The notes below the pieces were generated by a model, which saw only the letters and a list, made by a program, of their open reading frames with translations, did no database searches and was not told where the DNA came from. From positions 1-61,374 of the IMG/VR virus record IMGVR_UViG_3300009790_000009: 61,374 nt of DNA, one strand, 5' to 3'. Both the position numbers and the translations under genes were made by a program. The stretch comes from a virus. Lineage: Duplodnaviria > Caudoviricetes. This document shows positions 9,668-26,713 of the stretch, one piece after another. The first letter of the stretch is position 1; every line of letters starts with the position of its first letter.

Positions 9668-9921
9668 TGTCAGAAAGATTTCAAAAAACAAATTTGCCCG
9701 GAATGGTTAAAGACCATGCGACTGGTGCAATACTAAATACTAATAAGGATGCTTTTGTAGCATATAAATCTAGGAAGGCTAAGATCATGGAATCGAATAA
9801 TAGAATTGATTCTATAGAGATGGTAGTAGCTAACTTACAAGTTGAATTACAAAAGAGTGATGATAAAATAACAGAGATTCATTCCATGTTAAAGGCAATG
9901 GTAGGAAATAATGGCGGATAA
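9667..9921 (+). CDS. Small conserved hypothetical protein with a C-terminal coiled coil
   Basis: VKDHATGAILNTN motif followed by a heptad-like helix; translationally coupled. Confidence 0.65.
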   Translation: MSERFQKTNLPGMVKDHATGAILNTNKDAFVAYKSRKAKIMESNNRIDSIEMVVANLQVELQKSDDKITEIHSMLKAMVGNNGG

Positions 9922-12658
9922 AAAATATATATCAGCAAATATAGCGTATCAAACTGATACATTTGGTGCTTGGGTTGAAAGAACCAACCAGATGGTATTT
10001 GATATGTCTGAAAGAGTAGTTACTGCACAAGTAAACTCCATAGGTGCTGCTACAACAGGTAATGTCGTAGTAACATCTAATGTATGGAATAGTGATACTA
10101 GCGCATATGTAAATTCAACAGGTGGTGTATTTCAAGCTAATACAATAGCAGCATATGATTATTTAAGAGGTGGTAGTGTAGCCACAGAAGGTATTTTATA
10201 TATTACTTCTAATACAAATATGTCTAATGGAAGTGTTAATGTAGCATCTAACTCAACAGTCAATTCAGTAACAATTAAAGGCACATGGGCAGATATAGAA
10301 TCAACAACAGCTTATGTAAATGGTACAACATTACAAGTTAGTTCTAATGTTCATATTAATAGTACATCAACTAACACATCAATTAATTCAACATCATTAC
10401 ATGTAACTGGTACAACATTAGATATTAATTCAACAACAGTTGATATGGATGGCACCGCATTAACATATGACGGTGATAATGTTACAGTAACTGCTAATGA
10501 TATAACATTAAAATCAAATTCAACTATATCAGTTGTAGACATTAATGGAGACGGAACTTCCTCTTCAGTAACACTTGCTGGTAATTTAGTTACAGTAGAT
10601 TCAGACGAATCAAACTTTAATGCTAATGTTACATTTGGATCCAATGATAGTGATACTGTCACAGTAACATCAGTAATAGATTCAGATGTTAAACCTTCTG
10701 CTAATTCAAAAGCATTAGGTAATACAACAGCCAGATGGGATATTAGTGCAGAAGATATAGATGCATCTAATACATTAAACGTATCTGGTAATGCAACTTT
10801 CTTAAGCGATGTTCAATTAGGTAATGCTAATACTGATACAATTGATTGGCAAGCCGAAGTAGAAGGCAATATAAATCCAATATCTAATTCATATGGATTA
10901 GGTTTAAATGATGCTAGATGGGATATTAAAGGTACAGCAGGTAACTTTAGCACAGACTTATCAGTAACAAAAACAATTACAGGATCCAATACATTAACTA
11001 TAGCAGGACAAGCTAATTTAAATAGCACAGTTAATATTACAGGAGCAGCAGCTTTATCAAATACACTAGGTGTTACTGGCGCTGCTACATTAAGTAATAC
11101 ACTAGGTGTTACTGGTGCTACTACTTTATCAAATACATTAGCGGTAACAAATACAGCTACATTTAGTAATACAGGATCCTTTGCAGGATTATTATCAACT
11201 GTAGATATTAATACTACTGGATCTGTTAATGCAACAGCTGGTATGAATGTAGGTGCTAATGTTAATGTTAATACTTCACAAATTTCAATTGGTAACTCAA
11301 CACAGAATACTTATTTTAATGCAACAGGAATCGAAACAGACGGAACATTAGGTGTTAATAAGACTATTACAGGAGCCAACACTCTAGTAATATCCGGAGC
11401 TGCAACTCTTCAAAACACCTTAGCGTTAACAGGTGCTGCTACATTAAGTAATACTTTAGGCGTTACCGGTGTAACAACATTTACTGCTAATGCCGTTAGT
11501 GGTAATGTAGAAATTTCACAAGCTAAAATCACAGTAGGTAATTCAACTGTTAATGCAGTAATAGCAGATAGCGGTAATATAACAACAGATGGTGCATTAG
11601 ATGTATTAGGTGGATCTACACTTAGAGGTGGATTAACATCTGTAGCTGGTGCTACTTTACAAGCAGGAGCTGATGTCACAGGTAATGTTGATGTTAATGC
11701 TGCTGTTAATATTGGTGCTAATGTTACTTTAGGAACTGAAACACTTAAAATAGGTAACTCAACAGTCAATGCAGTTGTTGGCGCAGCTGCTGGTATTCAT
11801 ACTAAAGGTGACATTACTGGTAATGGTGCTATCACTGTTGGTGGCGCAGGTGCTATAGGAACAACTTTATCAGCTGGTAATACAGATATAACAGGTTATA
11901 TAAATGTATCATCAACATCTAATGTTGGTGGTGTTGCATGGTTTAGAAATAATATAAATCAAGCTACAGGCAAGTATGCTAATTTATCTAATGTTAAAAT
12001 AACCGGTAATGTAACAACCAATGTAATACATACAGGTACAAGAGCAAGTTTAGTTTCAAATAATATAAACTTAACAGCTTCAGCATTAACTGTAACTCCA
12101 GATGCTACATTTAACGAAGATGTTACTGTATCTGGTAACTTAACAGTTCAAGGAACAACATCATTATCATCTAGTAGTGCATTATCATTAAACGTCGCTA
12201 CAATGACTTCTTTAACAGTATCGGGTTCTGCTAACCTAGCAGGTAACGTCCATATTGGTGAAACGTATGCTGACGATGTTATTAATTTTAATGGTAAACT
12301 TAATACAAACATCATGCCACTTGCTAATGGTAAGTCACTCGGTAATACAACAAAAACATTTAACGTCTATGCTGGAACAGTCGATGCGTCTGGAGCAGTA
12401 GGTGTTGCTGGTGCACTAACAATTAACACTTCATCACAAACAGGGTCCGCAGTACATTCTGGTGACGTTAGAATAGGTAATTCAACTTCTAATACTATTA
12501 TTTCCGGCTCAGGTGGTGCAATGACGGTAGATTCTACTTTAACAGTAGATGGCTCGTCAAATGTCGTAGGAGATTTTAGTATCCATTCAGATATAAAGAA
12601 TGAATCGGGAACACCGTTCAGAGTCTTATATGCGAATGGCGACGTAGCTTGGCCATAA
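9911..12658 (+). CDS. Tail fibre-like or baseplate-attached structural protein (915 aa)
   Basis: N-terminal DTFGAWVERTN attachment-type motif, S/T/N/G-rich beta repeats and 12-aa repeats GA(A/T)xLSNTLxVT. Confidence 0.65.
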   Translation: MADKKYISANIAYQTDTFGAWVERTNQMVFDMSERVVTAQVNSIGAATTGNVVVTSNVWNSDTSAYVNSTGGVFQANTIAAYDYLRGGSVATEGILYITSNTNMSNGSVNVASNSTVNSVTIKGTWADIESTTAYVNGTTLQVSSNVHINSTSTNTSINSTSLHVTGTTLDINSTTVDMDGTALTYDGDNVTVTANDITLKSNSTISVVDINGDGTSSSVTLAGNLVTVDSDESNFNANVTFGSNDSDTVTVTSVIDSDVKPSANSKALGNTTARWDISAEDIDASNTLNVSGNATFLSDVQLGNANTDTIDWQAEVEGNINPISNSYGLGLNDARWDIKGTAGNFSTDLSVTKTITGSNTLTIAGQANLNSTVNITGAAALSNTLGVTGAATLSNTLGVTGATTLSNTLAVTNTATFSNTGSFAGLLSTVDINTTGSVNATAGMNVGANVNVNTSQISIGNSTQNTYFNATGIETDGTLGVNKTITGANTLVISGAATLQNTLALTGAATLSNTLGVTGVTTFTANAVSGNVEISQAKITVGNSTVNAVIADSGNITTDGALDVLGGSTLRGGLTSVAGATLQAGADVTGNVDVNAAVNIGANVTLGTETLKIGNSTVNAVVGAAAGIHTKGDITGNGAITVGGAGAIGTTLSAGNTDITGYINVSSTSNVGGVAWFRNNINQATGKYANLSNVKITGNVTTNVIHTGTRASLVSNNINLTASALTVTPDATFNEDVTVSGNLTVQGTTSLSSSSALSLNVATMTSLTVSGSANLAGNVHIGETYADDVINFNGKLNTNIMPLANGKSLGNTTKTFNVYAGTVDASGAVGVAGALTINTSSQTGSAVHSGDVRIGNSTSNTIISGSGGAMTVDSTLTVDGSSNVVGDFSIHSDIKNESGTPFRVLYANGDVAWP

Positions 12659-12676: not shown

Positions 12677-15148
12677 ATGTCGAATCCCCTAAAAATGATC
12701 GCACACGCCAACGGGGTATATGCGAATGGCGTTCAAGAGACTTCTTCTGCAGAATTAGACTATCTGTCTAAGCTTCTCTTAATTAAAATGGGTACCGAAT
12801 CTGGTACTGGAGATAATACTGCCGATCTTAATATTGATTCAACAGGATCCTCTGTAGGTACTTTTGTTGATGAATATGCCAATGCAGAAATACTTTCTCA
12901 TGATAGCCCAGCTATTACAAGCACGACTTATACTTTTAAACAAAATACAGCTACAGCATCTGAATCTGGTATTCATCATTTAGTCACACATGATGGTGAT
13001 AATAGTAATCCAGGAACAATTAGAATATTAACAGATGCAGAATTAAATGTAGTAATAGATTTAGCAATATCAGAAATATCAAAAGCTAATTCAACTTATG
13101 CTGCACCAGGAACATATTACGTAAGTTCTTCTTCTCCAAGTATTGGTGGTACGTGGGTAGCACAAGATACTTTCTATGATGAATTAACCAATCATGCAAA
13201 TGATGATGATGAAAAAGTTACTTATAAACTTTGGCGTAAAACATCATATGATAATTCTCCATCTACTATTCCATTATTAAAACAAATTAATGGTGCTCTT
13301 AAAGTTCAAACAGAAGATGAATTAGAAAATTTAACATCTAGATTAAGAAATAGAATTATAGGGACTAGTAAAGGAAAATATGTTTTCCAAGCCTCTGCAC
13401 CAGGAGCAGGAACATGGGTAGCTAGAGGAACAGCAACAAATAGAAAACCACAAATTAGTGGTGTTCAATATACTGGAACTTATTCAGATCAATATGCTGG
13501 CCAGTATGGTAGAGCTTTCGCTAGACAGTTTGCTCGCCAATTTACCAGACAATATTCTGCACAATATACAGTTCAGTTTTTAAGACAGTTTCAAAGAGTT
13601 TATACTGGTCAATATGAAAGACAATACTCTAGACAATTTGCTAGAGGAACAGCTGGAGCTCAGTTTGCAGCTACTCAATATGCTAGAGTTTATTCAGCGC
13701 AATATACAAGAGAAACACCAAGCACAACATATTCAGATGGTCAATATGATAGAGTAACACCAGGACCACAGTATGGAGTTCAATATACTAGAATATATTC
13801 TGCCAACTATTCAGATGGTCAGTACGATAGAGAAAGACCGGGACCACAATACGCATCACAGTTCTTAAGAGAATATGCTGGTGGCACTTATGCCGTTTCG
13901 TATGTTCGTCAAACTCCTAGTACACAATATAATGCTCAATATCAAAGAATATATTCTGTTAACTATTCAGTTGCTTATACAAGATCAAATTATACTAGAA
14001 TATATGGTGGTTACGGTTATGCAATAGGTTATGCTGTTACTTATGGAGTATTATACGCTAGAACTAGACCAGGACCTAATTATAATAGATCAACACCAGG
14101 ACCACAATATTCTGGTACATCATATCAGAGATGGTTTGCATCAGGCCCATATCCAGAAAACTATTATCTAGGACCATATTATCCGTTTGGACCTATTCCT
14201 TATGCAAGACATGCATTTACTGGTATGTTCTATAGAGGACCTGCTTATGCAAGAGCAACTTACCATGCTCCAGGTACTGGTTATACGAGTTTCCATGCTA
14301 CCCCTATAGGGGAACCTGTCATTCTAACTTTCTATAGAACGGCTGGTTTTGGTAGAGTTAGCTATTCCGGGCCTGGTTCTGGTTATGCTAATATTTTCTA
14401 TAGAGAATTTGCTGGTCCACAATATGCTCCACAGTATAGTAGAACTTATTCAGCCCAATATGGTAGAACTTATACAGCTCAATATTCAGTTTACTATACT
14501 AGAACATATTATTTTAGAAACTATTATTATAGAGCAAGACCTGGACCAAATTATGCACAAACGTATTCCAGATCATTTGCTAGAAATAATCCTGGTCCTC
14601 TATATGCTGGTACACAATATACTAGAATGGTCTATGCACTATATACTGCAACAGCATATTCAAGATATAGACCAGGTCCACAATATACAGGTCAGTTTGC
14701 TAGAGCATATGATGGTCAATATGCAAGACAATTTACTAGATCAACTCCTAGCACACAATATACAGTTCAATATGCTAGAGAATATGCTGGCCAATATGCA
14801 AGACAATTTACTAGAGTAGTTACAGCTCAGTATACTAGAATTACTCCTGGTCCACAATATAACCTTACATATGAGAGACAATATGTTGGTCAATATACAG
14901 GTTATTATGCTAGGGGTGATCAATATACTAGAGCAACTCCAGGACCTATATATGCAGGAGCACAATATACTGTGCAATATGCCAGAACTACGGGTGGCCC
15001 ACAATATGAATCGCAATATGCAGGGGCACAATATACTATACAATATACAGGACAATATGCAGGATCAAGGTTACATCAATATACCGGAGACACAGTTACA
15101 GCAACTAATGATTCCGATACAAAGACCTTGTGGTTAAGGGTAGCATAA
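12677..15148 (+). CDS. Tyr/Arg/Gln-rich repeat protein 1, putative long beta-hairpin virion fibre
   Basis: About 260-aa N-terminal domain paralogous to the next ORF (KLWRKTS, LRNRII, FQASAPG.GTW), then QY/RxY/PGP repeats around a unique centre; ends LWLRVA. Confidence 0.7.
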   Translation: MSNPLKMIAHANGVYANGVQETSSAELDYLSKLLLIKMGTESGTGDNTADLNIDSTGSSVGTFVDEYANAEILSHDSPAITSTTYTFKQNTATASESGIHHLVTHDGDNSNPGTIRILTDAELNVVIDLAISEISKANSTYAAPGTYYVSSSSPSIGGTWVAQDTFYDELTNHANDDDEKVTYKLWRKTSYDNSPSTIPLLKQINGALKVQTEDELENLTSRLRNRIIGTSKGKYVFQASAPGAGTWVARGTATNRKPQISGVQYTGTYSDQYAGQYGRAFARQFARQFTRQYSAQYTVQFLRQFQRVYTGQYERQYSRQFARGTAGAQFAATQYARVYSAQYTRETPSTTYSDGQYDRVTPGPQYGVQYTRIYSANYSDGQYDRERPGPQYASQFLREYAGGTYAVSYVRQTPSTQYNAQYQRIYSVNYSVAYTRSNYTRIYGGYGYAIGYAVTYGVLYARTRPGPNYNRSTPGPQYSGTSYQRWFASGPYPENYYLGPYYPFGPIPYARHAFTGMFYRGPAYARATYHAPGTGYTSFHATPIGEPVILTFYRTAGFGRVSYSGPGSGYANIFYREFAGPQYAPQYSRTYSAQYGRTYTAQYSVYYTRTYYFRNYYYRARPGPNYAQTYSRSFARNNPGPLYAGTQYTRMVYALYTATAYSRYRPGPQYTGQFARAYDGQYARQFTRSTPSTQYTVQYAREYAGQYARQFTRVVTAQYTRITPGPQYNLTYERQYVGQYTGYYARGDQYTRATPGPIYAGAQYTVQYARTTGGPQYESQYAGAQYTIQYTGQYAGSRLHQYTGDTVTATNDSDTKTLWLRVA

Positions 15149-15184
15149 ATAAAAATACAAAACTAAACACGGGGAAAGTGAAGC

Positions 15185-18043
15185 GTGGCGAATCCTTTAA
15201 AAATTAATACAAGTTCAGGTCAACCAAATACCACAAACTGGTCTGGCCTAAAAACAATGTCTGCAGCAGAGATGGACTATGCTTGTTATAAAATCCTTAC
15301 AAATTTCGCTACCGAAGCTAACTCAACTACATCTTATGTTGGTGATTTAAATACAATAGGCCTTGGTACTTCAAGAGGTGCTTACACAGATCAACGTTTT
15401 CAAGATGCAGTTGGCACTCACCCCTCAGCCGCATCCACTAATACTGTAGTAACAACTTTTTATCAAAATACTGATAGTGCATCAGAAACTAGTTTGATTA
15501 GACCATTAGAATGGCAAACCGGTGGACCTAAAGAACAAACAGACACTACTTTAAATAATTCTATTATAGATAGATGTTTAACTAAAATTGCAAATACATC
15601 TTCAGCTGCAATTGGTGAATATTATATTGATTCAACTGCTCCAGCAGGTGGAACATGGACAGAAGAAAAATCATTTACTGATACCTTAACTGCATCTGAT
15701 GGTACACATGCTACTTGGAAGCTTTGGAGAAAAACTTCTGATACCGCCCCTACAACAGTAAGACCTATTAAATGGTCTAATGGTGAAGGTCAGGATGGTA
15801 TTAATGAAATGACTGATACTGAGATTAATCATCTCACAGCTAGATTAAGAAATAGAATTATAGCTACTGGTGTTGGTACTTATGCATTTCAAGCTTCAGC
15901 ACCGGGAACAGGAACATGGACTCAAGTATCTGGTAATATAACAGATAATCAAGCTTCAATTGTAGCTACACAATATTCAGGACAATATACTGGAACATTC
16001 GGTAGACAGTTTGCCAGAACTTATTCAGCTCAATACGCTAGACAATTTACTAGAATATATTCAGCACAATATGGTAGACAGTTTGCCAGAACTTATTCAG
16101 CTCAATACGCTAGACAATTTGCTAGAACTTATTCTGCAGGCTATGGTCGACAATTTGCTAGAACATATGCAGGACAGTATGCAAGACAATTTACTAGAGT
16201 ATATCTAGGTCAATATCTTAGAGCTACAGATGGTCCTCAATACACAGTTCAATATACAAGAAATACTCCTGGACCACAATATACAGTTCAATATACAAGA
16301 ATAAATCCTGGACCTAATTACACTGATGGCCAATATACTAGAGCTACGCCAGGTCCTCAATATACTTCACAGTATGATAGAGCTACACCTGGACCTAATT
16401 ACACTGATGGTCAATATGCTAGAGCTACTGGTGGACCTCAATATACAGTTCAATACGCTAGAACTTATGCAGATCAATATACTGTTCAATATGCCAGAAC
16501 TTATTCTGCACAATATTCTAGACAGTTTGGTAGAGTATATTCAGTTACTTATGCAGTTCAATATGCAAGGGTATATTCAGTTAACTATGCTGTAAACTAT
16601 ACAAGACAATTTACAAGAGTAAGACCAGGACCTAATTATGCAGTTAACTATGGTAGATCAAGACCAGGACCAGCATACGGTGTTGCATATGGTAGATCAA
16701 GACCAGGACCAGCATACGGTGTTGCATATGGTAGATCAAGACCTGGACCTAGTTATTCTGTAGGATATACTGTTAACTATGGTAGAGTCTATTACGGATC
16801 TTATACAGTAAACTATGGTAGAGTATATTATGGATCCTATACAGTAAACTATGGTAGAACTTATTCTGGATCCTATACCAGTAACTATGGTAGAGTATAT
16901 TCTGGTAACTATGCTGGACCTGCTTATCAAAGACAAACTCTACATGAATTTTTTAATCCATGGAGTTATGAACCATATTTTAGATGGATAAATGGACCAA
17001 CTTATGGTGGTGGTAACTTTGCTAGGTCTAGACCAGGACCTGCTTATGGAGTATCATATGGTAGATCTAGACCAGGACCTGCTTATGGAGTATCATATGG
17101 TAGATCTAGACCTGGACCTGCTTATGGAGTATCATACGGTAGATCAAGGCCAGGACCAGCTTATGGAGTGCAATATTCTAGAAGCTTTGGTAGAGTCTAT
17201 TATGGATCCTATACTGTAAACTATGGTAGAGTCTATTATGGACAATATACTGTAAACTATGGTAGAGTCTATTCTGGGTCTTATGCTGTTAACTATGGTA
17301 GAACTTATTCTGGTCAATATAGTGGATCGGCATATGCTGTAAACTATACTAGACAAACTGGTGGACCACAATATACAGTAAACTATACTAGAATAAATCC
17401 TGGACCACAATATACAGTAAACTATGATAGAGCTACACCTGGTCCTCAATATACTGTTCAATATACTAGAGCTACTGGTGGACCTCAATATACTGTTCAA
17501 TACGCTAGAACTTATTCTGCACAATATGCTAGGCAGTTTGGTAGAATATATTCAGCACAATATGGTCGACAATTTGCTAGAACATATGCAGGACAGTATT
17601 CAAGACAATTCGGAAGAGTTTATTCCGTTCAATATACAATACAATATACTAGAGTATACGCTGGACAATATACAATACAATATACTAGAGTATATGGTGC
17701 TCAATATGATAGAGCAAGACCTGGACCTGGTTATTCCGACGGTCAATATACCAGAGCCACACCAGGACCTCAGTATAATATAGATTATGCTAGAGCGACT
17801 CCTGGTCCTCAATATACGGGAGATCAATATGCTAGAGCTACTGGTGGACCACAATATACTTCACAGTATGATAGAGCGACTCCCGGACCTAATTATACTG
17901 ATGGCCAGTATACTAGAGCTACTGGTGGACCACAATATACAGTGAATTACACTCAACAGTTTACAGGACAATATACTGGAGATACAGTGACATCAACTCC
18001 TGCGCTTAATAGTACATTAAAACTATGGCTTAGGGTTGCATAA
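15185..18043 (+). CDS. Tyr/Arg/Gln-rich repeat protein 2, putative long beta-hairpin virion fibre (GTG start)
   Basis: Paralogue of 12677-15148 with 48 repeat units of 12-13 aa around a 31-aa unique centre; ends LWLRVA. Confidence 0.7.
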   Translation: MANPLKINTSSGQPNTTNWSGLKTMSAAEMDYACYKILTNFATEANSTTSYVGDLNTIGLGTSRGAYTDQRFQDAVGTHPSAASTNTVVTTFYQNTDSASETSLIRPLEWQTGGPKEQTDTTLNNSIIDRCLTKIANTSSAAIGEYYIDSTAPAGGTWTEEKSFTDTLTASDGTHATWKLWRKTSDTAPTTVRPIKWSNGEGQDGINEMTDTEINHLTARLRNRIIATGVGTYAFQASAPGTGTWTQVSGNITDNQASIVATQYSGQYTGTFGRQFARTYSAQYARQFTRIYSAQYGRQFARTYSAQYARQFARTYSAGYGRQFARTYAGQYARQFTRVYLGQYLRATDGPQYTVQYTRNTPGPQYTVQYTRINPGPNYTDGQYTRATPGPQYTSQYDRATPGPNYTDGQYARATGGPQYTVQYARTYADQYTVQYARTYSAQYSRQFGRVYSVTYAVQYARVYSVNYAVNYTRQFTRVRPGPNYAVNYGRSRPGPAYGVAYGRSRPGPAYGVAYGRSRPGPSYSVGYTVNYGRVYYGSYTVNYGRVYYGSYTVNYGRTYSGSYTSNYGRVYSGNYAGPAYQRQTLHEFFNPWSYEPYFRWINGPTYGGGNFARSRPGPAYGVSYGRSRPGPAYGVSYGRSRPGPAYGVSYGRSRPGPAYGVQYSRSFGRVYYGSYTVNYGRVYYGQYTVNYGRVYSGSYAVNYGRTYSGQYSGSAYAVNYTRQTGGPQYTVNYTRINPGPQYTVNYDRATPGPQYTVQYTRATGGPQYTVQYARTYSAQYARQFGRIYSAQYGRQFARTYAGQYSRQFGRVYSVQYTIQYTRVYAGQYTIQYTRVYGAQYDRARPGPGYSDGQYTRATPGPQYNIDYARATPGPQYTGDQYARATGGPQYTSQYDRATPGPNYTDGQYTRATGGPQYTVNYTQQFTGQYTGDTVTSTPALNSTLKLWLRVA
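16651..17168 (+). repeat. Coding tandem repeats: 39-nt units (GRSRPGPAYGVxY) and 36-nt units (GRVYYGSYTVNY) flanking a unique centre
   Basis: Near-identical 39-nt units occur at about 16651-16750 and 17024-17168, for example agatctagaccaggacctgcttatggagtatcatatggt. Confidence 0.9.
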
Positions 18044-18088: not shown

Positions 18089-18514
18089 ATGGCCCGATTT
18101 AAGTCTGTCTTATGGGAAGACCCCAATACAAAATTAAGAGTTAGAGCGCGAGAAATCACCGATGGTGGTAGTCGTGATGTCATTATTGACAAAAATGATA
18201 AAGAGAACTGGGATGCAGTAATTGCAGAATTTCCTTTAGAAGAAATAGATAAAGCATCTCAAGAAGATGTAGAACAACATCGTGTAAGAAAGGCAAAGCA
18301 AGAAGCTGAAGAACGCGATAGTATGGAACGAAGATTCCAAGAAGAACTATTCAACGTTAAAGTTGAAGTATTTGAAATACCTGAAATAAAAGAATGCACC
18401 GACAAATTAATGAAGAGGCGTATTAGAAAGTCTAAATCATTTGCAGAGCTATATGTTTATGCAGCTGCAATAGTAGTAGCAGACGATCTTGCGAAAGCTG
18501 ATGTTTCAGGGTGA
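18089..18514 (+). CDS. Hypothetical charged helical protein (possible fibre assembly factor)
   Basis: GGAG RBS; immediately follows the two repeat genes. Function inferred from position only. Confidence 0.55.
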   Translation: MARFKSVLWEDPNTKLRVRAREITDGGSRDVIIDKNDKENWDAVIAEFPLEEIDKASQEDVEQHRVRKAKQEAEERDSMERRFQEELFNVKVEVFEIPEIKECTDKLMKRRIRKSKSFAELYVYAAAIVVADDLAKADVSG

Positions 18515-18893
18515 TCTATTAAATGGATGGCCAGAAGATGGCGAACCAGATAAGTCTACTTTATATAAAGTAAATATAAATGATATTGGTGGCGAGTTAT
18601 TAAAAGACACTGCACAATATACATTAAAAGATAATAAGCGTCTTAATAATTTAGTTCTTAGTAGCACATTCCTTAGAGCAAACCAAAAAACAAATGGCCA
18701 TACTCATAATGGTCAAGAAGAAGTATACTTCTTTATTAAAGGTAAAGGAAAGATGACTATTGATGATATTACTTTTGAAGTTAAAGAAGGTGATGTTATA
18801 TTAATTCCAGACGGCGCTTATCATAGAGTAATTAATGATAGTCATGTAGGACTATATTTTGTATGCGTGTTTGATGGAAAAAGAAACCACTAG
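18501..18893 (+). CDS. Cupin-domain protein
   Basis: HTHNGQEEVYFFIKGKG and GDVILIPDGAYHRVIN are the two cupin motifs; ATG at 18501 preferred as start. Confidence 0.85.
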   Translation: MFQGDLLNGWPEDGEPDKSTLYKVNINDIGGELLKDTAQYTLKDNKRLNNLVLSSTFLRANQKTNGHTHNGQEEVYFFIKGKGKMTIDDITFEVKEGDVILIPDGAYHRVINDSHVGLYFVCVFDGKRNH

Positions 18894-19017
18894 TATACTA
18901 GATAAAATAGAAAAAGTCCACCCAATGAGACAAGTATTTTGGGCTTCGATAGTACAAATTTGTGTGTTGGGTTTTATGGCTTTATGTATGTTTATAATAG
19001 GAGCAACAATTGGATAA
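18874..19017 (+). CDS. Small single-TM protein (47 aa, not in the ORF track)
   Basis: Translates as MEKETTSILDKIEKVHPMRQVFWASIVQICVLGFMALCMFIIGATIG* and fills the gap between its neighbours with short overlaps. Confidence 0.55.
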   Translation: MEKETTSILDKIEKVHPMRQVFWASIVQICVLGFMALCMFIIGATIG

Positions 19018-19777
19018 AGGCTTTGTAATATGTGTAACAGTGAAACCAGTCTTTGTTACGTTAGCATTAAATTTAATCGATTCTATTGATGAGTATTATC
19101 CTGATGCCAAAATAATGGTATCAACATTACCTCAATGGGCAGATGCATTTAAAGTATATGATCAAGTAGTAGAAGTTAGAACTGATGGTCCTAACAATAT
19201 AAGAAATAAGTTGTGGGCTTTACAGCATACACCATTTGATAAAACTTGTTATCTCGATGCTGATATGGAATTTAAATCAGAAAGAGCTAGTGAAGTGTGG
19301 GATCTATTAGATGATGATCATGATGTTGCATTCACTCAAATATGTCCACCAACAGGTATGACTACTGCAATTTATGAAGAAGAAGGTCGTAAAGAAATAA
19401 GAGATAATAATGTAGAAAGGCATTTAAGAAATCATGGAGGTTTCTTTCTATGGCATAAACATAAACCAAATGCTGTAAAAGCTATGAAGCGTTGGTGGGA
19501 ACTTTGGCAAGAGATTAATGAGAATGATAAATGGTGGGATGAGCGTCCTGAATACTTTAGAGCAAATCAATCATGGGATCAATTTTCATGGTGGTGGTTA
19601 ACTCAAAAAGAGATGCCAGAATTAAAAATACAAGAAATAGAAAATGATACTGCATATCAATATCAGTGGAATATGAATCCACAAGTATTTAAATTTATAG
19701 ATAAACCTGATGATTGGGAATTAATTATAGATCATCATCCAGCACATAAGGTGAAGAATGAGAGCGTACCAATATGA
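19010..19777 (+). CDS. Glycosyltransferase, GT-A fold (GT8-like)
   Basis: Contains NKLWALQHTPFDKTCYLDAD (DxD motif), NHGGFF and WDQFS; TTG start with a GGAG RBS. Confidence 0.75.
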   Translation: MDKGFVICVTVKPVFVTLALNLIDSIDEYYPDAKIMVSTLPQWADAFKVYDQVVEVRTDGPNNIRNKLWALQHTPFDKTCYLDADMEFKSERASEVWDLLDDDHDVAFTQICPPTGMTTAIYEEEGRKEIRDNNVERHLRNHGGFFLWHKHKPNAVKAMKRWWELWQEINENDKWWDERPEYFRANQSWDQFSWWWLTQKEMPELKIQEIENDTAYQYQWNMNPQVFKFIDKPDDWELIIDHHPAHKVKNESVPI

Positions 19778-20601
19778 TAATGAGAGATATCAATATAAGA
19801 AATAAAGAATTTATTGATTTGCTGAACAAACTAGAAGTAGTAATTAAGGACTGGGTTGAAAACAGATCCGATAAAATTATGGAGTTATTCCATATACATC
19901 AAAATCAACAATGTCCTGATGCAAGAAAAAGAGATGATAAGGTCCCAATGGATCATCCAGGCGGAGCAAGTGAATTATATGCTGCGCATGATTTATATCC
20001 ACCTTGTGGCAGAGAAATGTTGGACTTGATGATAGAAAAGACTAAACAACATGGACCGCATGCTGAACTTACTAATGGGTTTCCTAGTAGAGAAAATTTA
20101 GTTGCATATAGATCAATTGAATCACAACCATGGTATGATGAGACAAAAGAACCTTTAGAGTCAGCTATCAAGGATATATCTTATAAATATTTAGGTGGAG
20201 GGTCAATGGCATTAGCTGCGTTTTATCCTCCTGGTGGATATATAGGATGGCATCATAATGGTAATGCTCCAGGTTATAATATATTATTACATTATAATTT
20301 TGGGGGCACTGGGAATTTCTATACATTTGATAATAATGAAATAATTGCTTATCCAGATAAACCTAATGAATGGGTTTGTAGAGCAGGCGACTTCGTTATA
20401 GCACATAACGATTCACGTGCAGAAGAAGTCATACAAAGAGGACACCAAGTCCAGGGCGCTGTTCCAAGGGTAGCAAAAGATGTTGAAGGAATGTCATGGC
20501 ATTCAGCTGAGAATCCGGATACATGGAGATTTACATTATCAACTGTAATTAATGATTTCGACATAAGAGAAGATTTATTAGATGAAATAGAAACCCCCTA
20601 A
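19774..20601 (+). CDS. Putative 2OG-Fe(II) oxygenase or other double-stranded beta-helix enzyme
   Basis: Contains FYPPGGYIGWHHN, a distal SWHSA and WRFTLS in the spacing of DSBH oxygenases; HxN replaces the usual HxD. Confidence 0.6.
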   Translation: MIMRDINIRNKEFIDLLNKLEVVIKDWVENRSDKIMELFHIHQNQQCPDARKRDDKVPMDHPGGASELYAAHDLYPPCGREMLDLMIEKTKQHGPHAELTNGFPSRENLVAYRSIESQPWYDETKEPLESAIKDISYKYLGGGSMALAAFYPPGGYIGWHHNGNAPGYNILLHYNFGGTGNFYTFDNNEIIAYPDKPNEWVCRAGDFVIAHNDSRAEEVIQRGHQVQGAVPRVAKDVEGMSWHSAENPDTWRFTLSTVINDFDIREDLLDEIETP

Positions 20602-20644: not shown

Positions 20645-20992
20645 ATGGCAACTAAGTCAAATTTTACTATTGATAAAGGGACCGACTGGTCTACAGTAGT
20701 AGCAGTAACATCAGCAAATGGAGCAATCTTTGATGTAACAGGTTATGCCTGTACATGTAAATTCAGAAAGCATTGGTCTTCAAATAACGTATATCAAATA
20801 GCTGCGGACGTAAGTTCGGGCACTGAAGGTGAAATTACATTATCATGTCAGACTACAAATAGTTCAGCTATAGCATACTCCCCTAATTACGTACCAGGTA
20901 GATTCTCATATGATCTTGATGTCGTCAGTGACGGAAAGACTACTAGAGTATTACAAGGTACTGTAACTATAACTCCGGAGATGATATACTAA
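20645..20992 (+). CDS. Small virion structural protein (Ig-like, baseplate-upper-protein-like)
   Basis: IDKGTDWS...YDLDV...TRVLQGTVTITPE pattern common in marine T4-like phages. Confidence 0.6.
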   Translation: MATKSNFTIDKGTDWSTVVAVTSANGAIFDVTGYACTCKFRKHWSSNNVYQIAADVSSGTEGEITLSCQTTNSSAIAYSPNYVPGRFSYDLDVVSDGKTTRVLQGTVTITPEMIY

Positions 20993-25606: not shown

Positions 25607-26713
25607 ATGGCTAGACAAGCACTTATTAAACTCAGGAGGGGTACGGGCGCTCCTGCGAATAATGTGCTGGCTGAAGGCGAATTAGCAATTGATATAGCGG
25701 CAAAGAAACTATACAGTGCTAACTCAAACGGTAATGCGTTTACACTTTCGGGCGACCAGTACAATATGTCACAGTCCGGTAATGCCACACATGGTATTAT
25801 CACCCTTACTGTTGACAACACGACTCTATCAAATGATAGTGTATTAATTACTGGTGGATCAGATATTACCGTTGCTGGTAATTCTACTGTAGTAAATGTA
25901 AATTCTACATCAACACTAGATACCGTACTAGGAAGAGGAGCATCTTCTTCTAAAACTCTAGGCGTTGGAAACACAACAATAACAGGTTTTGCTAATGTTA
26001 CTTCAACATTAGAAGTAGGTAGCACATCACAATTTGATGGAGCTATCACAGTAGGTAACTCAACAGTCAATGCAGTAATTGCAGCATCTGGTAATATAGA
26101 TACAGATGGATTATTAACTGTTGGTGGCAATACCGCATTAAGTGACTCTTTAACCGTAGCAGATACTTCCACATTTAGTGGCGCAGTAACTGTAGGTAAT
26201 TCAACTGTCAATGCTGTTATAGCAACATCAGGTAATATTAATACCGATGGTACATTAACAGTAGCTGGTAATACAGCATTCAACGGCGCTAATAATGAAA
26301 TCGCCGGTCAAGTAAATATCAATGATACAACAACTTCATCTTCTGTCTCTACTGGAGCATTAGTTGTAGATGGTGGTGTTGGTATTGCAGAAAACTTATT
26401 TATTGGTGGTAACTTATCAGTTGCAGGTACAACAACAACAGTATCTTCAACAACAGTTACAATTGATGATAACTTAATTAAACTTGCTGCTAATCAAACA
26501 GCAGATGATACAGACGCAGTTGACACGGGGTTATATTCTACCTATGATGTAGGTGGAACACAAAAATATTCAGGTTTCGTTAGAGATACTTCAAATTCAA
26601 ATAAAGCATTTATATTCTTTGAAGGTATCACAAGTGAACCTGCAGGAACAGTCTCGTACACTGCATCAGACCTTGCTTACATAGAAGCTATTGTGGATGG
26701 TGGAACGTACTAA
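25607..26713 (+). CDS. Tail fibre-like protein (368 aa)
   Basis: IKLRRG...LAEGELAI N-terminus and TGALVVDGGVGIAENL motif; ends VDGGTY; AGGAG RBS. Confidence 0.7.
   Translation: MARQALIKLRRGTGAPANNVLAEGELAIDIAAKKLYSANSNGNAFTLSGDQYNMSQSGNATHGIITLTVDNTTLSNDSVLITGGSDITVAGNSTVVNVNSTSTLDTVLGRGASSSKTLGVGNTTITGFANVTSTLEVGSTSQFDGAITVGNSTVNAVIAASGNIDTDGLLTVGGNTALSDSLTVADTSTFSGAVTVGNSTVNAVIATSGNINTDGTLTVAGNTAFNGANNEIAGQVNINDTTTSSSVSTGALVVDGGVGIAENLFIGGNLSVAGTTTTVSSTTVTIDDNLIKLAANQTADDTDAVDTGLYSTYDVGGTQKYSGFVRDTSNSNKAFIFFEGITSEPAGTVSYTASDLAYIEAIVDGGTY

What the first reader, a model, noticed from the sequence alone, without database searches (positions are those of the whole stretch)
14127..14401. Unique aromatic segments at the hairpin apex as candidate receptor-binding tips located mid-gene
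Seen: the only non-repetitive sequence in each repeat region sits at the symmetry centre and is unrelated between the paralogues. It is about 92 aa here (RWFASGPYPENYYLGPYYPFGPIPY...HATPIGEPVILTFY...) and 31 aa at 16931-17023 (RQTLHEFFNPWSYEPYFRWINGPTYGGGNFA). Both proteins share the N-terminal domain and the final LWLRVA, which resembles the N-domain's KLWRKT strand. Inference: both termini form the virion-proximal base, and the middle of the gene encodes the distal variable tip, unlike ordinary fibres with C-terminal receptor-binding domains.
Basis: inference. Interest (0 to 1): 0.7.

Follow-up and report, generated by a model that had tools for sequence, protein, structure and literature searches.

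The report
Phage fibre built as one giant hairpin
Two neighbouring genes of a marine T4-like phage encode proteins whose two ends fold together into one globular base, so the long tyrosine/arginine repeat region between them is a huge hairpin with a variable, swappable segment at its far end, a plausible but untested host-binding tip.

Summary
The hairpin topology is well supported. The N-domain is three homologous repeats. The third lacks its last strand, which the C-terminal LWLRVA supplies. A 273-aa homologue has the domain uninterrupted, with a 14-aa loop where W1 has 541 residues. Docking of tail on N-domain scored 0.87 (best control 0.00). In 48 of 61 family proteins the longest unique stretch splits the repeats 40:60 or more evenly, over arms of about 45 to 567 aa. 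The centre is the least conserved region in 32 of 32 comparisons. It evolved about 6x faster than the N-domain at non-synonymous sites in the one pair with DNA, and comes in at least 21 types that do not follow N-domain kinship. Not shown: the fold of arms and centre (AlphaFold2 pLDDT below 45 per 10-residue block), oligomeric state, which end faces the virion, and any receptor binding. "Aromatic" does not mark the centre; lost periodicity and added Pro, Gly, Trp and His do. T4 gp37 is a small-scale precedent.

The parts
12677..13462 (+). W1 base domain, aa 1-262. It consists of three homologous repeats; the third is incomplete.
   Evidence: AlphaFold2 (AF2) pLDDT is mostly 63-93 per 10-residue block, with one block at 53. 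By hhalign, repeat 2 against repeat 3 gives 98% probability, E 3e-13; repeat 1 against repeat 2 gives 82%, E 1e-5.
13463..14125 (+). W1 outgoing arm, aa 263-483. Tyr/Phe occurs every 4th residue, with Arg two residues away.
   Evidence: Aromatic spacing is 4 in 30 of 45 intervals, and Arg sits at +/-2 from the aromatic residue. AF2 pLDDT is below 35.
14126..14401 (+). W1 apex segment, aa 484-575. It is aperiodic and rich in Pro and Gly.
   Evidence: It is the only unique run in the repeat region. This centre type occurs only in W1 and its 96%-identical relative P0001 among 73 family proteins. It is the lowest-identity region in 32 of 32 comparisons.
14402..15085 (+). W1 returning arm, aa 576-803.
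   Evidence: AF2 strand positions mirror those of the outgoing arm: 306-321/740-755, 338-343/719-724 and 431-433/631-633. Confidence in these strands is low.
15086..15148 (+). W1 C-terminal tail, aa 804-823 plus stop. It supplies the missing last strand of repeat 3.
   Evidence: pLDDT is about 92 for aa 810-823. Docking on aa 231-262 scores ipSAE 0.87 against a best control of 0.00. The tail aligns with the repeat-2 strand VTYKLWRK.
15185..15964 (+). W2 base domain, aa 1-260.
   Evidence: It is 42% identical to the W1 N-domain. AF2 pLDDT is 52-93 per 10-residue block.
15965..16930 (+). W2 outgoing arm, aa 261-582. The blocks of 12-aa and 13/14-aa (Pro-Gly-Pro) repeats run in the order A-B-A-C-D.
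   Evidence: Tandem Repeats Finder (TRF) finds periods of 36, 39 and 42 nt.
16931..17023 (+). W2 apex segment, aa 583-613.
   Evidence: Unique run aa 572-617 at fraction 0.50. Its best match elsewhere in the family has E 0.068.
17024..17977 (+). W2 returning arm, aa 614-931. The blocks run C-D-B-A-B, which is the mirror complement of the outgoing arm.
   Evidence: The mirror correlation of the Gly-Pro track is -0.75, and 0 of 280 circular shifts are as low; the parallel control is +0.11.
17978..18043 (+). W2 C-terminal tail, aa 932-952 plus stop.
   Evidence: pLDDT is 80-85 for aa 940-952. Strand 933-951 mirrors strand 244-263.

Best explanation
W1 and W2 are structural proteins of a marine T4-like myovirus. 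Each is built on a globular base domain made of three homologous repeats. The loop before the last strand of the third repeat has been expanded into two equally long arms of Tyr/Arg period-4 repeats: one runs out and one runs back. The C-terminal LWLRVA strand therefore re-enters the base, and the gene's midpoint is the point farthest from it. The aperiodic midpoint segment is a separate, fast-evolving, exchangeable module. I take it to be the exposed end that contacts a ligand, most likely on the host surface. Arm length is set by tandem duplication of 12- to 14-residue units. In W2, stretches with Pro-Gly-Pro units on one arm face stretches without them on the other. Shown by computation: the base domain needs the C-terminal strand; the arms are equal in length; the centre is the most variable part and is modular. 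Inferred: the arms pair as an extended antiparallel ribbon, the base is the virion-proximal end, and the apex binds the host. My odds are about 0.85 for the hairpin topology, 0.65 for the base being proximal, and 0.4-0.5 for the apex being a receptor-binding tip.
For: The window is a T4-like structural module, with baseplate wedge, sheath, portal and major head protein. The gene order around the pair is conserved in related phage contigs.

Base domain. Repeats 2 and 3 are homologous (hhalign 98%, E 3e-13), and so are repeats 1 and 2 (82%, E 1e-5). P0076 (273 aa) carries repeat 3 uninterrupted to its C-terminus. It aligns end to end with repeat 2 (94.9%, E 4.6e-8, 80 columns), with its ESLWLRIS on YKLWRKTS.

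Docking. The predicted complex of aa 1-262 with aa 790-823 gave ipSAE 0.87 (three runs, 0.83-0.89) against a best control of 0.00. Partner pLDDT was at least 68, and at least 93% of contacts were shared between runs. The stated mark was reached by 58 of 80 solved complexes and 2 of 110 mismatched pairs. Contacts were aa 804-823 with aa 231-242 and 245-262. AF2 gives a confident tail in both proteins.

Size series. Insert sizes run from a 14-aa loop (273 aa protein), through 287-338 aa and 408-551 aa forms, W1 and W2, and 1278-2713 aa forms, to 3347 aa in phage C48C1.

Equal arms. N-arm/C-arm lengths are 89/88, 107/108, 238/240, 311/314 (W2), 357/353, 473/465 and 567/554.

Centre. It is the least conserved region in 32 of 32 rows. 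For L007 paralogue 2 against L012, dN is 0.228 in the centre, 0.039 in the N-domain and 0.095-0.099 in the arms. The 42 proteins with a central core fall into 21 BLAST types. W1 and P0003/P0004 have N-domains 80% identical but unrelated centres.
Against: AF2 gave no usable model of the arms or the centre; pLDDT was below 45 per 10-residue block in both proteins. The mirrored strand positions therefore come from low-confidence parts of the models.

Mirror complementarity of Gly-Pro units is not significant in W1, the protein of this finding (r -0.12; 25% of shifts are as low). It is strong in only 11 of 52 proteins, and it is positive in P0041 (+0.59).

In 13 of 61 proteins the longest unique run is not central.

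The centre is under purifying selection on average (dN/dS 0.18, with dS saturated). This comes from one pair only, and not from the window's own genes.

In contigs L007 and L004 the two paralogues share a centre type at 57% and 43% identity, while their N-domains are 41% identical. That fits a shared partner of any kind, not specifically a host receptor.

No virion proteomics, host or binding data exist. The docking test joins two parts of one chain, so a pass shows they belong to one fold, nothing more.
Confidence: 0.6

Rival explanations
1. Reversed polarity. The hairpin topology is right, but the apex module anchors the protein in the virion and the globular three-repeat domain is the outward-facing, ligand-binding head.
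For: The best fold matches of the base domain in both models are beta-prism accessory domains of pore-forming and ESCRT proteins: 8b6v, 3tow, 2qp2 and 6sb1. Z is 4.8-6.1 over 109-120 residues (rmsd 3.5-5.2), and the next unrelated rows have Z 2.7-2.8. From recall, such domains often bind membranes or glycans. Two paralogues in one phage share the same centre type, as expected if both plug into the same virion site.
Against: Homologues of 273-296 aa have little or no arm and no apex module, so the conserved globular domain must carry the family's core role. The centre comes in 21 unrelated types and is exchanged between close relatives, which is unusual for a virion attachment site. All Z scores are below the tool's trust level of 8.
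Confidence: 0.2
2. The repeat region is a flexible, largely unstructured Tyr/Arg-rich 'sticky' loop, not a rigid fibre. The midpoint segment would then be only the most decayed part of the repeat array, with no function of its own.
For: AF2 pLDDT is 23-42 per 10-residue block along the arms and centre of both proteins. The arms are low in complexity, with no Lys, Trp or (W2) His. W1's centre still contains repeat-like pieces. No solved structure matches W2 by sequence.
Against: The register is strict: aromatic spacing is 4 in 51 of 68 intervals in the W2 outgoing arm, and Arg is almost only at +/-2. The units are exact 36/39/42-nt repeats. Arm lengths are equal over a 12-fold range. W2 and L004 paralogue 2 show mirror complementarity of -0.75 and -0.77. 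Centre modules of about 60-110 aa are conserved across proteins whose N-domains are only about 40% identical, always at fraction about 0.5. These features point to a defined paired structure and a real module.
Confidence: 0.12
3. These are ordinary trimeric tail fibres with an N-terminal anchor, a repetitive shaft and a C-terminal receptor-binding end. The central segment would be a hinge or knee.
For: The genes sit among fibre-like genes downstream of the baseplate wedge genes. The N-domain is conserved, as in many fibres.
Against: The C-terminal 20 residues are among the most conserved parts (50-100% identity; L818, W819, L820, R821 and A823 are invariant). They dock on the N-domain and are homologous to an internal strand of that domain. 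No room is left for a C-terminal binding domain.
Confidence: 0.05

Closest known systems
T4 long tail fibre protein gp37, distal domains D10/D11 (stem and tip)
   Same: It has a nested-insertion topology. [quoted passage not shown] The tip forms the distal pole with the putative receptor sites (PMC6957217, Introduction passage read). So the chain goes out and comes back, and the binding tip is not at the C-terminus.
   Different: In gp37 the hairpin is about 50 residues per arm at the end of a 1026-aa trimeric fibre, and is held by iron-binding histidines (same paper). Here the whole shaft is the hairpin, at about 220-320 residues per arm and up to about 570 or more in relatives. It springs from a three-repeat globular domain, and the W2 arms contain no His. 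No sequence similarity to any solved chain was found for W2.
Beta-prism accessory domains (MABP domain of MVB12B 3tow; C-terminal domains of MACPF proteins 2qp2 and 8b6v; perforin-2 P2 domain 6sb1)
   Same: These are the best structural matches of the base domain in two independent models, and in all of them the aligned range runs to the last residue of the protein. Like a prism, the base domain has three internal repeats.
   Different: Z is only 4.8-6.1 at 4-11% identity. The base domain also has one helix per repeat. Foldseek found nothing at E <= 0.001 in PDB or BFVD. No functional link is implied.
Phage C48C1 hypothetical protein WJE88074.1 (3347 aa, Kyanoviridae record OQ984149.1)
   Same: It is the only relative among 50,697 deposited phage records. 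It has the same N-domain (28.9% identity over 99% of the query, E 8e-11), period-4 aromatic repeats and a YTLYVRVA ending.
   Different: It is four times longer, with several non-repetitive, apparently globular inserts spread through its second half instead of one central segment. It is annotated only as hypothetical.

Membership tests
T4 gp37-type needle/tip | The chain runs to the distal pole and returns, so the tip is an insertion and not the C-terminus. | tested here: met
   The C-terminal strand completes the base domain. The unique segment sits at the midpoint. That the midpoint is 'distal' is inferred, not shown.
T4 gp37-type needle/tip | Histidine motifs along the stem that coordinate iron (as described in PMC6957217). 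| tested here: not met
   His is 0.0% in both W2 arms and 0.0-0.4% in the W1 arms.
T4 gp37-type needle/tip | Detectable sequence relationship to gp37. | tested here: inconclusive
   phmmer of W2 against all PDB chains found no match at E <= 1. There was no Pfam fibre family or PHROG hit. A profile search was not done.
T4 gp37-type needle/tip | Homotrimer forming a six-stranded needle. | not tested
The oligomeric state is unknown.
Beta-prism (MABP-like) fold, base domain only | Three-fold internal repeat. | tested here: met
   hhalign: repeat 2 against repeat 3, E 3e-13; repeat 1 against repeat 2, E 1e-5; P0076 repeat 3 against repeat 2, E 4.6e-8.
Beta-prism (MABP-like) fold, base domain only | Structural superposition on solved prisms. 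| tested here: inconclusive
   Z is 5.4-6.1 for the top three chains (rmsd 3.5-3.9, 109-120 residues aligned) in both models, falling to 2.7-2.8 for unrelated rows. This is below the tool's trust level of 8.
Annotated phage tail-fibre families (Pfam, PHROGs) | A match to a curated fibre model. | tested here: not met
   PHROGs gave 0 families for W1 and W2. Pfam gave 0 families for W1. For W2 it gave two short hits on repeat stretches with no stretch passing on its own: DUF2158 (25.2 bits, nominally above its 22.3 cut-off) and DUF5808 (below cut-off). Neither is a fibre family.

The most novel reading that the evidence does not exclude
This may be a previously undescribed way to build a phage fibre. 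A single chain forms a two-stranded hairpin rod that grows out of one loop of a pseudo-threefold globular domain. In W2 the out and back strands are 'complementary' repeat types: 12-aa units face 13/14-aa Pro-Gly-Pro units. Tandem duplication of a whole hairpin segment would then lengthen the rod while keeping the pairing, much as a nucleic-acid hairpin grows. That would explain a family that spans a 14-aa loop to inserts of some 3000 aa, with an exchangeable ligand-binding module kept exactly at the apex.
Probability: 0.3. Interest if true: 0.85.

Novelty: new variant of a known kind. Interest (0 to 1): 0.72.

Why it matters
If the model is right, the host-range determinant of these marine phages lies in the middle of the gene. 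Fibre annotation and engineering normally look at the C-terminus. Fibre length would also be tunable by repeat number without disturbing either end. The family has no annotation, although it has 267 clusters at E <= 0.001 among 1.84 billion representative proteins, and the window stretch occurs in marine metagenome runs from 12 studies. A strictly periodic Tyr/Arg ribbon of this length would also be a new structural motif worth solving.

Tried and rejected
- **Family libraries.** Pfam and PHROGs on W1, W2 and the upstream fibre-like ORF gave nothing useful.
- **Fold searches.** Foldseek of the W1 model against BFVD and PDB found no match at E <= 0.001.
- **ESM Atlas.** It returned only unnamed viral clusters, scoring 0.84-0.86, below the tool's lead level, and it holds no model of W1.
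- **AlphaFold2.** Both jobs modelled only the base domain and tail. There is no model of the arms or centres, so no statement on their fold can be made.
- **Locus scan.** A single-protein scan of viral contigs found no relative. The alignment-based scan then worked.
- **W2 relatives.** The N-domain search found no close orthologue (best 51% identity, in a fragment), so conservation of W2's own centre could not be measured.
- **Read recruitment.** Only Logan contigs were available, and the difference table was cut (53 rows not shown), so no per-site diversity profile could be made.
- **Literature.** The search for 'C48C1' returned one unrelated paper. The searches for cyanophage/tail fiber/tyrosine/repeat/beta-hairpin and for beta-prism/tail fiber/pseudo-threefold listed nothing on this family. 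These cover only the held open-access library.
- **First block reading.** I first took the blocks as a same-with-same palindrome. It is not: W2 is A-B-A-C-D | C-D-B-A-B. The inner C-D | C-D part is a direct 408-nt duplication at DNA level.
- **Arm-length correlation.** The Pearson correlation of arm lengths is uninformative (r 0.05), because in a few giants the longest unique run is not the apex.
Full report
**What is there**

The window is a 61-kb fragment of an IMG/VR virus record, with completeness estimated at 34%. It carries a T4-like structural module: baseplate wedge, tail sheath, sheath stabiliser, portal, scaffold, major head protein and large terminase. The major head protein is 75% identical to that of Stenotrophomonas phage DLP_6 and 70% identical to Methylophilales phage Melnitz.

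Two adjacent same-strand ORFs are paralogues. W1 is 12677-15148 (823 aa) and W2 is 15185-18043 (952 aa, GTG start). Their N-domains are 42% identical (E 2e-38), and both end in LWLRVA.

Between the N-domain and the last ~20 residues lie 541 residues in W1 and 671 in W2. In these, Tyr or Phe recurs every fourth residue; for example, 51 of 68 aromatic intervals in the W2 outgoing arm are 4. Arg lies almost only two residues from an aromatic residue. Lys and Trp are absent. At DNA level the units are 36 nt (12 aa) or 39/42 nt (13/14 aa, containing Pro-Gly-Pro).

**The observation**

The quoted segments are real. W2 aa 583-613 is nt 16931-17023. By a self-similarity scan, each is the only unique run in its repeat region, at fractions 0.48 and 0.50. 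The two centres share only a 13-residue low-complexity match.

'Aromatic' does not set the centres apart: they have 25-29% Y+F+W against 20-22% in the arms. What differs is the loss of the 4-residue spacing, two- to three-fold more Pro in W1, more Gly, the appearance of Trp and His, and less Gln and Arg.

**The family**

A search with the W1 N-domain found 44 proteins of 452-1441 aa, all from metagenomes and none with an informative name. It also found 15 shorter ones. An exhaustive HMMER pass over 1.84 billion representative proteins gave 267 clusters at E <= 0.001, 149 at <= 1e-10 and 13 at <= 1e-30. The domain sits at the N-terminus in nearly all of the 150 listed.

Among 50,697 deposited phage records only one has the domain: a 3347-aa hypothetical protein of phage C48C1, a Kyanoviridae record. 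Pfam and PHROGs gave no fibre family or other informative match for W1 or W2.

**Both termini form one domain**

Several independent lines agree.

1. *Internal repeats.* The N-domain consists of three homologous repeats. By hhalign, repeat 2 (aa 99-194) against repeat 3 (aa 195-262) gives 98% probability, E 3e-13. Repeat 1 against repeat 2 gives 82%, E 1e-5, over 81 columns that include their last strands TTYTFKQN and VTYKLWRK. Repeat 3 stops short of that last strand.
2. *The tail matches the missing strand.* The repeat-2 strand aligns with the C-terminal DTKTLWLR. On its own this is weak (8 columns, E 0.015).
3. *An uninterrupted homologue.* P0076 (273 aa) has repeat 3 running without interruption to its C-terminus, with a 14-residue loop where W1 has 541 residues. 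That contiguous stretch aligns end to end with repeat 2 (94.9%, E 4.6e-8, 80 columns), placing ESLWLRIS on YKLWRKTS.
4. *Confident tails in AlphaFold2.* AlphaFold2 gives confident base domains and confident C-terminal tails in both proteins: pLDDT about 92 for W1 aa 810-823 and 80-85 for W2 aa 940-952. Everything between is below 45 per 10-residue block.
5. *Docking with controls.* The complex prediction of W1 aa 1-262 with aa 790-823 gave ipSAE 0.87 (three runs, 0.83-0.89) against 0.00 for the best of three controls. Partner pLDDT was at least 68, and at least 93% of contacts were shared between runs. The tool's mark was reached by 58 of 80 solved complexes and 2 of 110 mismatched pairs. Residues 804-823 touch 231-242 and 245-262. 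These are two pieces of one chain, so a pass means they belong to one fold. No solved relative exists that could explain it by memory.
6. *Fold search includes the last residue.* The search without Foldseek returned the same top chains for both models, and the aligned range includes the protein's last residue. They are beta-prism accessory domains: 8b6v, 3tow, 2qp2 and 6sb1, with Z 4.8-6.1, rmsd 3.5-5.2 and 109-120 residues aligned. Z then drops to 2.7-2.8. This is below the tool's trust level of 8, so I treat the prism likeness as a lead only.

**The repeat region is a hairpin with the unique segment at its apex**

Given the closed ends, the chain must go out and come back. The family forms a size series. 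It starts at a 14-aa loop (273 aa protein). It continues through forms of 287-338 aa with arms of a few to about 25 residues, and forms of 408-551 aa. Then come W1 and W2, proteins of 1027-2713 aa in related contigs, and finally 3347 aa in C48C1.

In 48 of the 61 proteins that have a unique run (69 examined), the longest run splits the repeat region between 0.40 and 0.60. The median is 0.497 and the interquartile range 0.475-0.519. N-arm/C-arm lengths include 89/88, 107/108, 194/187, 238/240, 311/314 (W2), 357/353, 473/465 and 567/554. A simpler measure, the least self-similar 12-mer neighbourhood, gave 35 of 44. The sequences are related, so these counts overstate independence. Still, the pattern holds in subfamilies whose N-domains are only 30-40% identical to W1.

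In the shortest regular members the centre is little more than a Gly-Gly turn. The strands that AlphaFold2 drew in the low-confidence arms lie at mirrored positions:
- W1: 247-269/800-821, 306-321/740-755, 338-343/719-724 and 431-433/631-633, giving centres at 531-534.
- W2: 244-263/933-951 and 319-324/864-869, giving centres at 594-598.

This is suggestive only.

**Complementary arms**

In W2 the blocks read A-B-A-C-D | centre | C-D-B-A-B. A and D are 12-aa units, and B and C are 13/14-aa Pro-Gly-Pro units. Read from the base outwards, every Pro-Gly-Pro block on one arm faces a block without it on the other.

The mirror correlation of a Gly-Pro track is -0.75, and 0 of 280 circular shifts are as low (minimum -0.36). 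The parallel control is +0.11. A W2-type protein in contig L004 gives -0.77.

Over 52 proteins the mirror correlation is negative in 43, but it beats 99% of shifts in only 11. In W1 it is not significant (-0.12), and in P0041 it is positive (+0.59). So this is a property of W2 and some relatives, not of the whole family.

The inner C-D | C-D part of W2 is a direct 408-nt duplication with 74% matches. Duplicating a whole C-turn-D hairpin in tandem would keep C opposite D, which offers a simple route to lengthening. That is my inference.

**The centre is variable and modular, but not random**

Against W1, the centre has the lowest identity of five regions in 32 of 32 aligned proteins. For P0003 the values are N-domain 79%, tail 75%, arms 52-58% and centre 29%. 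For the near-identical P0001 they are 100, 100, 93-95 and 92%.

W1's centre type occurs only in W1 and P0001 among 73 family proteins. W2's has no significant match (best E 0.068). The 42 proteins with a central core of 30 aa or more fall into 21 BLAST types. These types do not follow the N-domain: W1 and P0003/P0004 share 80% of the N-domain but have unrelated centres.

For the only close pair with DNA (paralogue 2 of contig L007 against L012, both W2-type):

| Region | dN | dN/dS |
|---|---|---|
| N-domain | 0.039 | 0.055 |
| Arms | 0.095-0.099 | 0.06-0.09 |
| Centre | 0.228 | 0.18 |
| Tail | 0.042 | 0.07 |

dS is saturated. The centre is therefore fastest, but it is still under purifying selection on average.

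Against a simple 'hypervariable tip' reading, the two paralogues in contig L007 share one centre type at 57% identity over 89 aa. Those in L004 share one at 43% over 42 aa. Their N-domains are 41% identical. Centre modules are thus conserved folds that are exchanged. In some phages both proteins carry the same kind, while in the window's phage they differ.

**What remains open**

- The fold of the arms is unknown. The pattern puts Tyr/Phe and Arg on one face of a beta strand, which would suit a Tyr-Arg ladder across paired strands, but nothing here shows it. An extended ribbon would be roughly 70-110 nm long, and a coiled form far shorter.
- The oligomeric state is unknown.
- Which end faces the virion is inferred from two facts. 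Forms without arms keep only the globular domain. And the centre, not the base, is the exchangeable part.
- No data bear on receptor binding.

**Comparison with what is known**

T4 gp37 already shows a nested out-and-back topology with the receptor-binding tip inside the sequence (PMC6957217; Introduction passages read).

What differs here is the scale: the whole shaft is the hairpin. The anchor also differs, being a loop of a three-repeat globular domain. The Tyr/Arg chemistry has no His. And the insert size range is enormous. I found no paper on this family in three searches of the held library. That library omits most subscription journals.

**Verdict**

The hairpin topology is well supported. 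The apex as the variable module is supported with caveats. Its role in receptor binding is plausible and untested.

Noticed in passing
window 18089-18514, 19010-19777, 19774-20601 (also 20645-20992): Homologues of these genes follow the family gene(s) in related phage contigs. All three of 18089, 19010 and 19774 are present in 6 of 10 loci examined; L028 has two before it ends, and 3 loci end too early to tell. This holds even where a single 466-475 aa family member stands alone. The 19010 family has an invariant D-x-D and weak, sub-threshold likeness to GT-A glycosyltransferases: Pfam Glycos_transf_2 in 5 of 8 members (best E 1.9e-4), and glycogenin-1 at E 0.15 by PDB profile. The 19774 family has an invariant WH.N.N...H pattern and no match. 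They could be assembly or modification factors for the Tyr-rich proteins, but this is untested.
   Followed up: partly
window 16705-16745, 16861-16898, 17026-17066, 17238-17275: Contigs from other marine runs skip exactly one repeat unit (39 or 36 nt) at these places in the W2 arms. Run X4 has skips in the outgoing C and D blocks and in the returning D block. Run X3 has one in the returning C block with no matching loss in the outgoing arm. These may be real length variants or assembly collapse of repeats in short contigs. Long reads would tell whether losses in facing blocks go together.
   Followed up: partly
window 12677-16171: One 14.6-kb contig of run X4 differs from the window at 66 letters and 5 gaps over this span. 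Among the 40 differences shown, only one (13337) lies in the W1 N-domain and the rest lie in the arms and centre; 53 more were not shown. An almost identical N-domain beside about 4% divergent arms suggests recombination at the domain boundary, not uniform divergence.
   Followed up: no
L001 1614-11657 (phage C48C1, OQ984149.1): This 3347-aa family member has several non-repetitive, apparently globular inserts separated by repeat stretches, plus a duplicated ~90-aa segment. It has no Pfam match. It is the only member found in a deposited phage genome, and so the best entry point for experiments.
   Followed up: partly
L028 6986-15124; L021 6995-11356; L007 9506-14023; L004 3443-7276: These are giant family members of 1278-2713 aa. 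In L021 and L028 they are preceded by a 2324-2330 aa ORF with repeat-level similarity to W2. In L028 the unique runs lie near both ends of the repeat region (fractions 0.07-0.13 and 0.88-0.92), not at the centre.
   Followed up: no
window 18489-18893: A 134-aa cupin-domain protein (Pfam Cupin_2, E 1.7e-13) sits between the paralogue pair's downstream genes. No homologue of it was matched in the related loci examined.
   Followed up: no
window 25607-26713: This 368-aa ORF has a weak, sub-threshold N-terminal match to the Mtd_N domain (major tropism determinant; E 0.003, 17.9 bits against a cut-off of 26.3) and a PHROG 'structural protein' hit. I did not look for a reverse transcriptase or template repeat.
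   Followed up: no
window 9911-12658: This 915-aa ORF lies directly upstream of W1. It is rich in Asn/Ser/Thr repeats and has no Pfam or PHROG match. It is conserved in the same position in related contigs at 36-46% identity. It is probably another fibre component.
   Followed up: no
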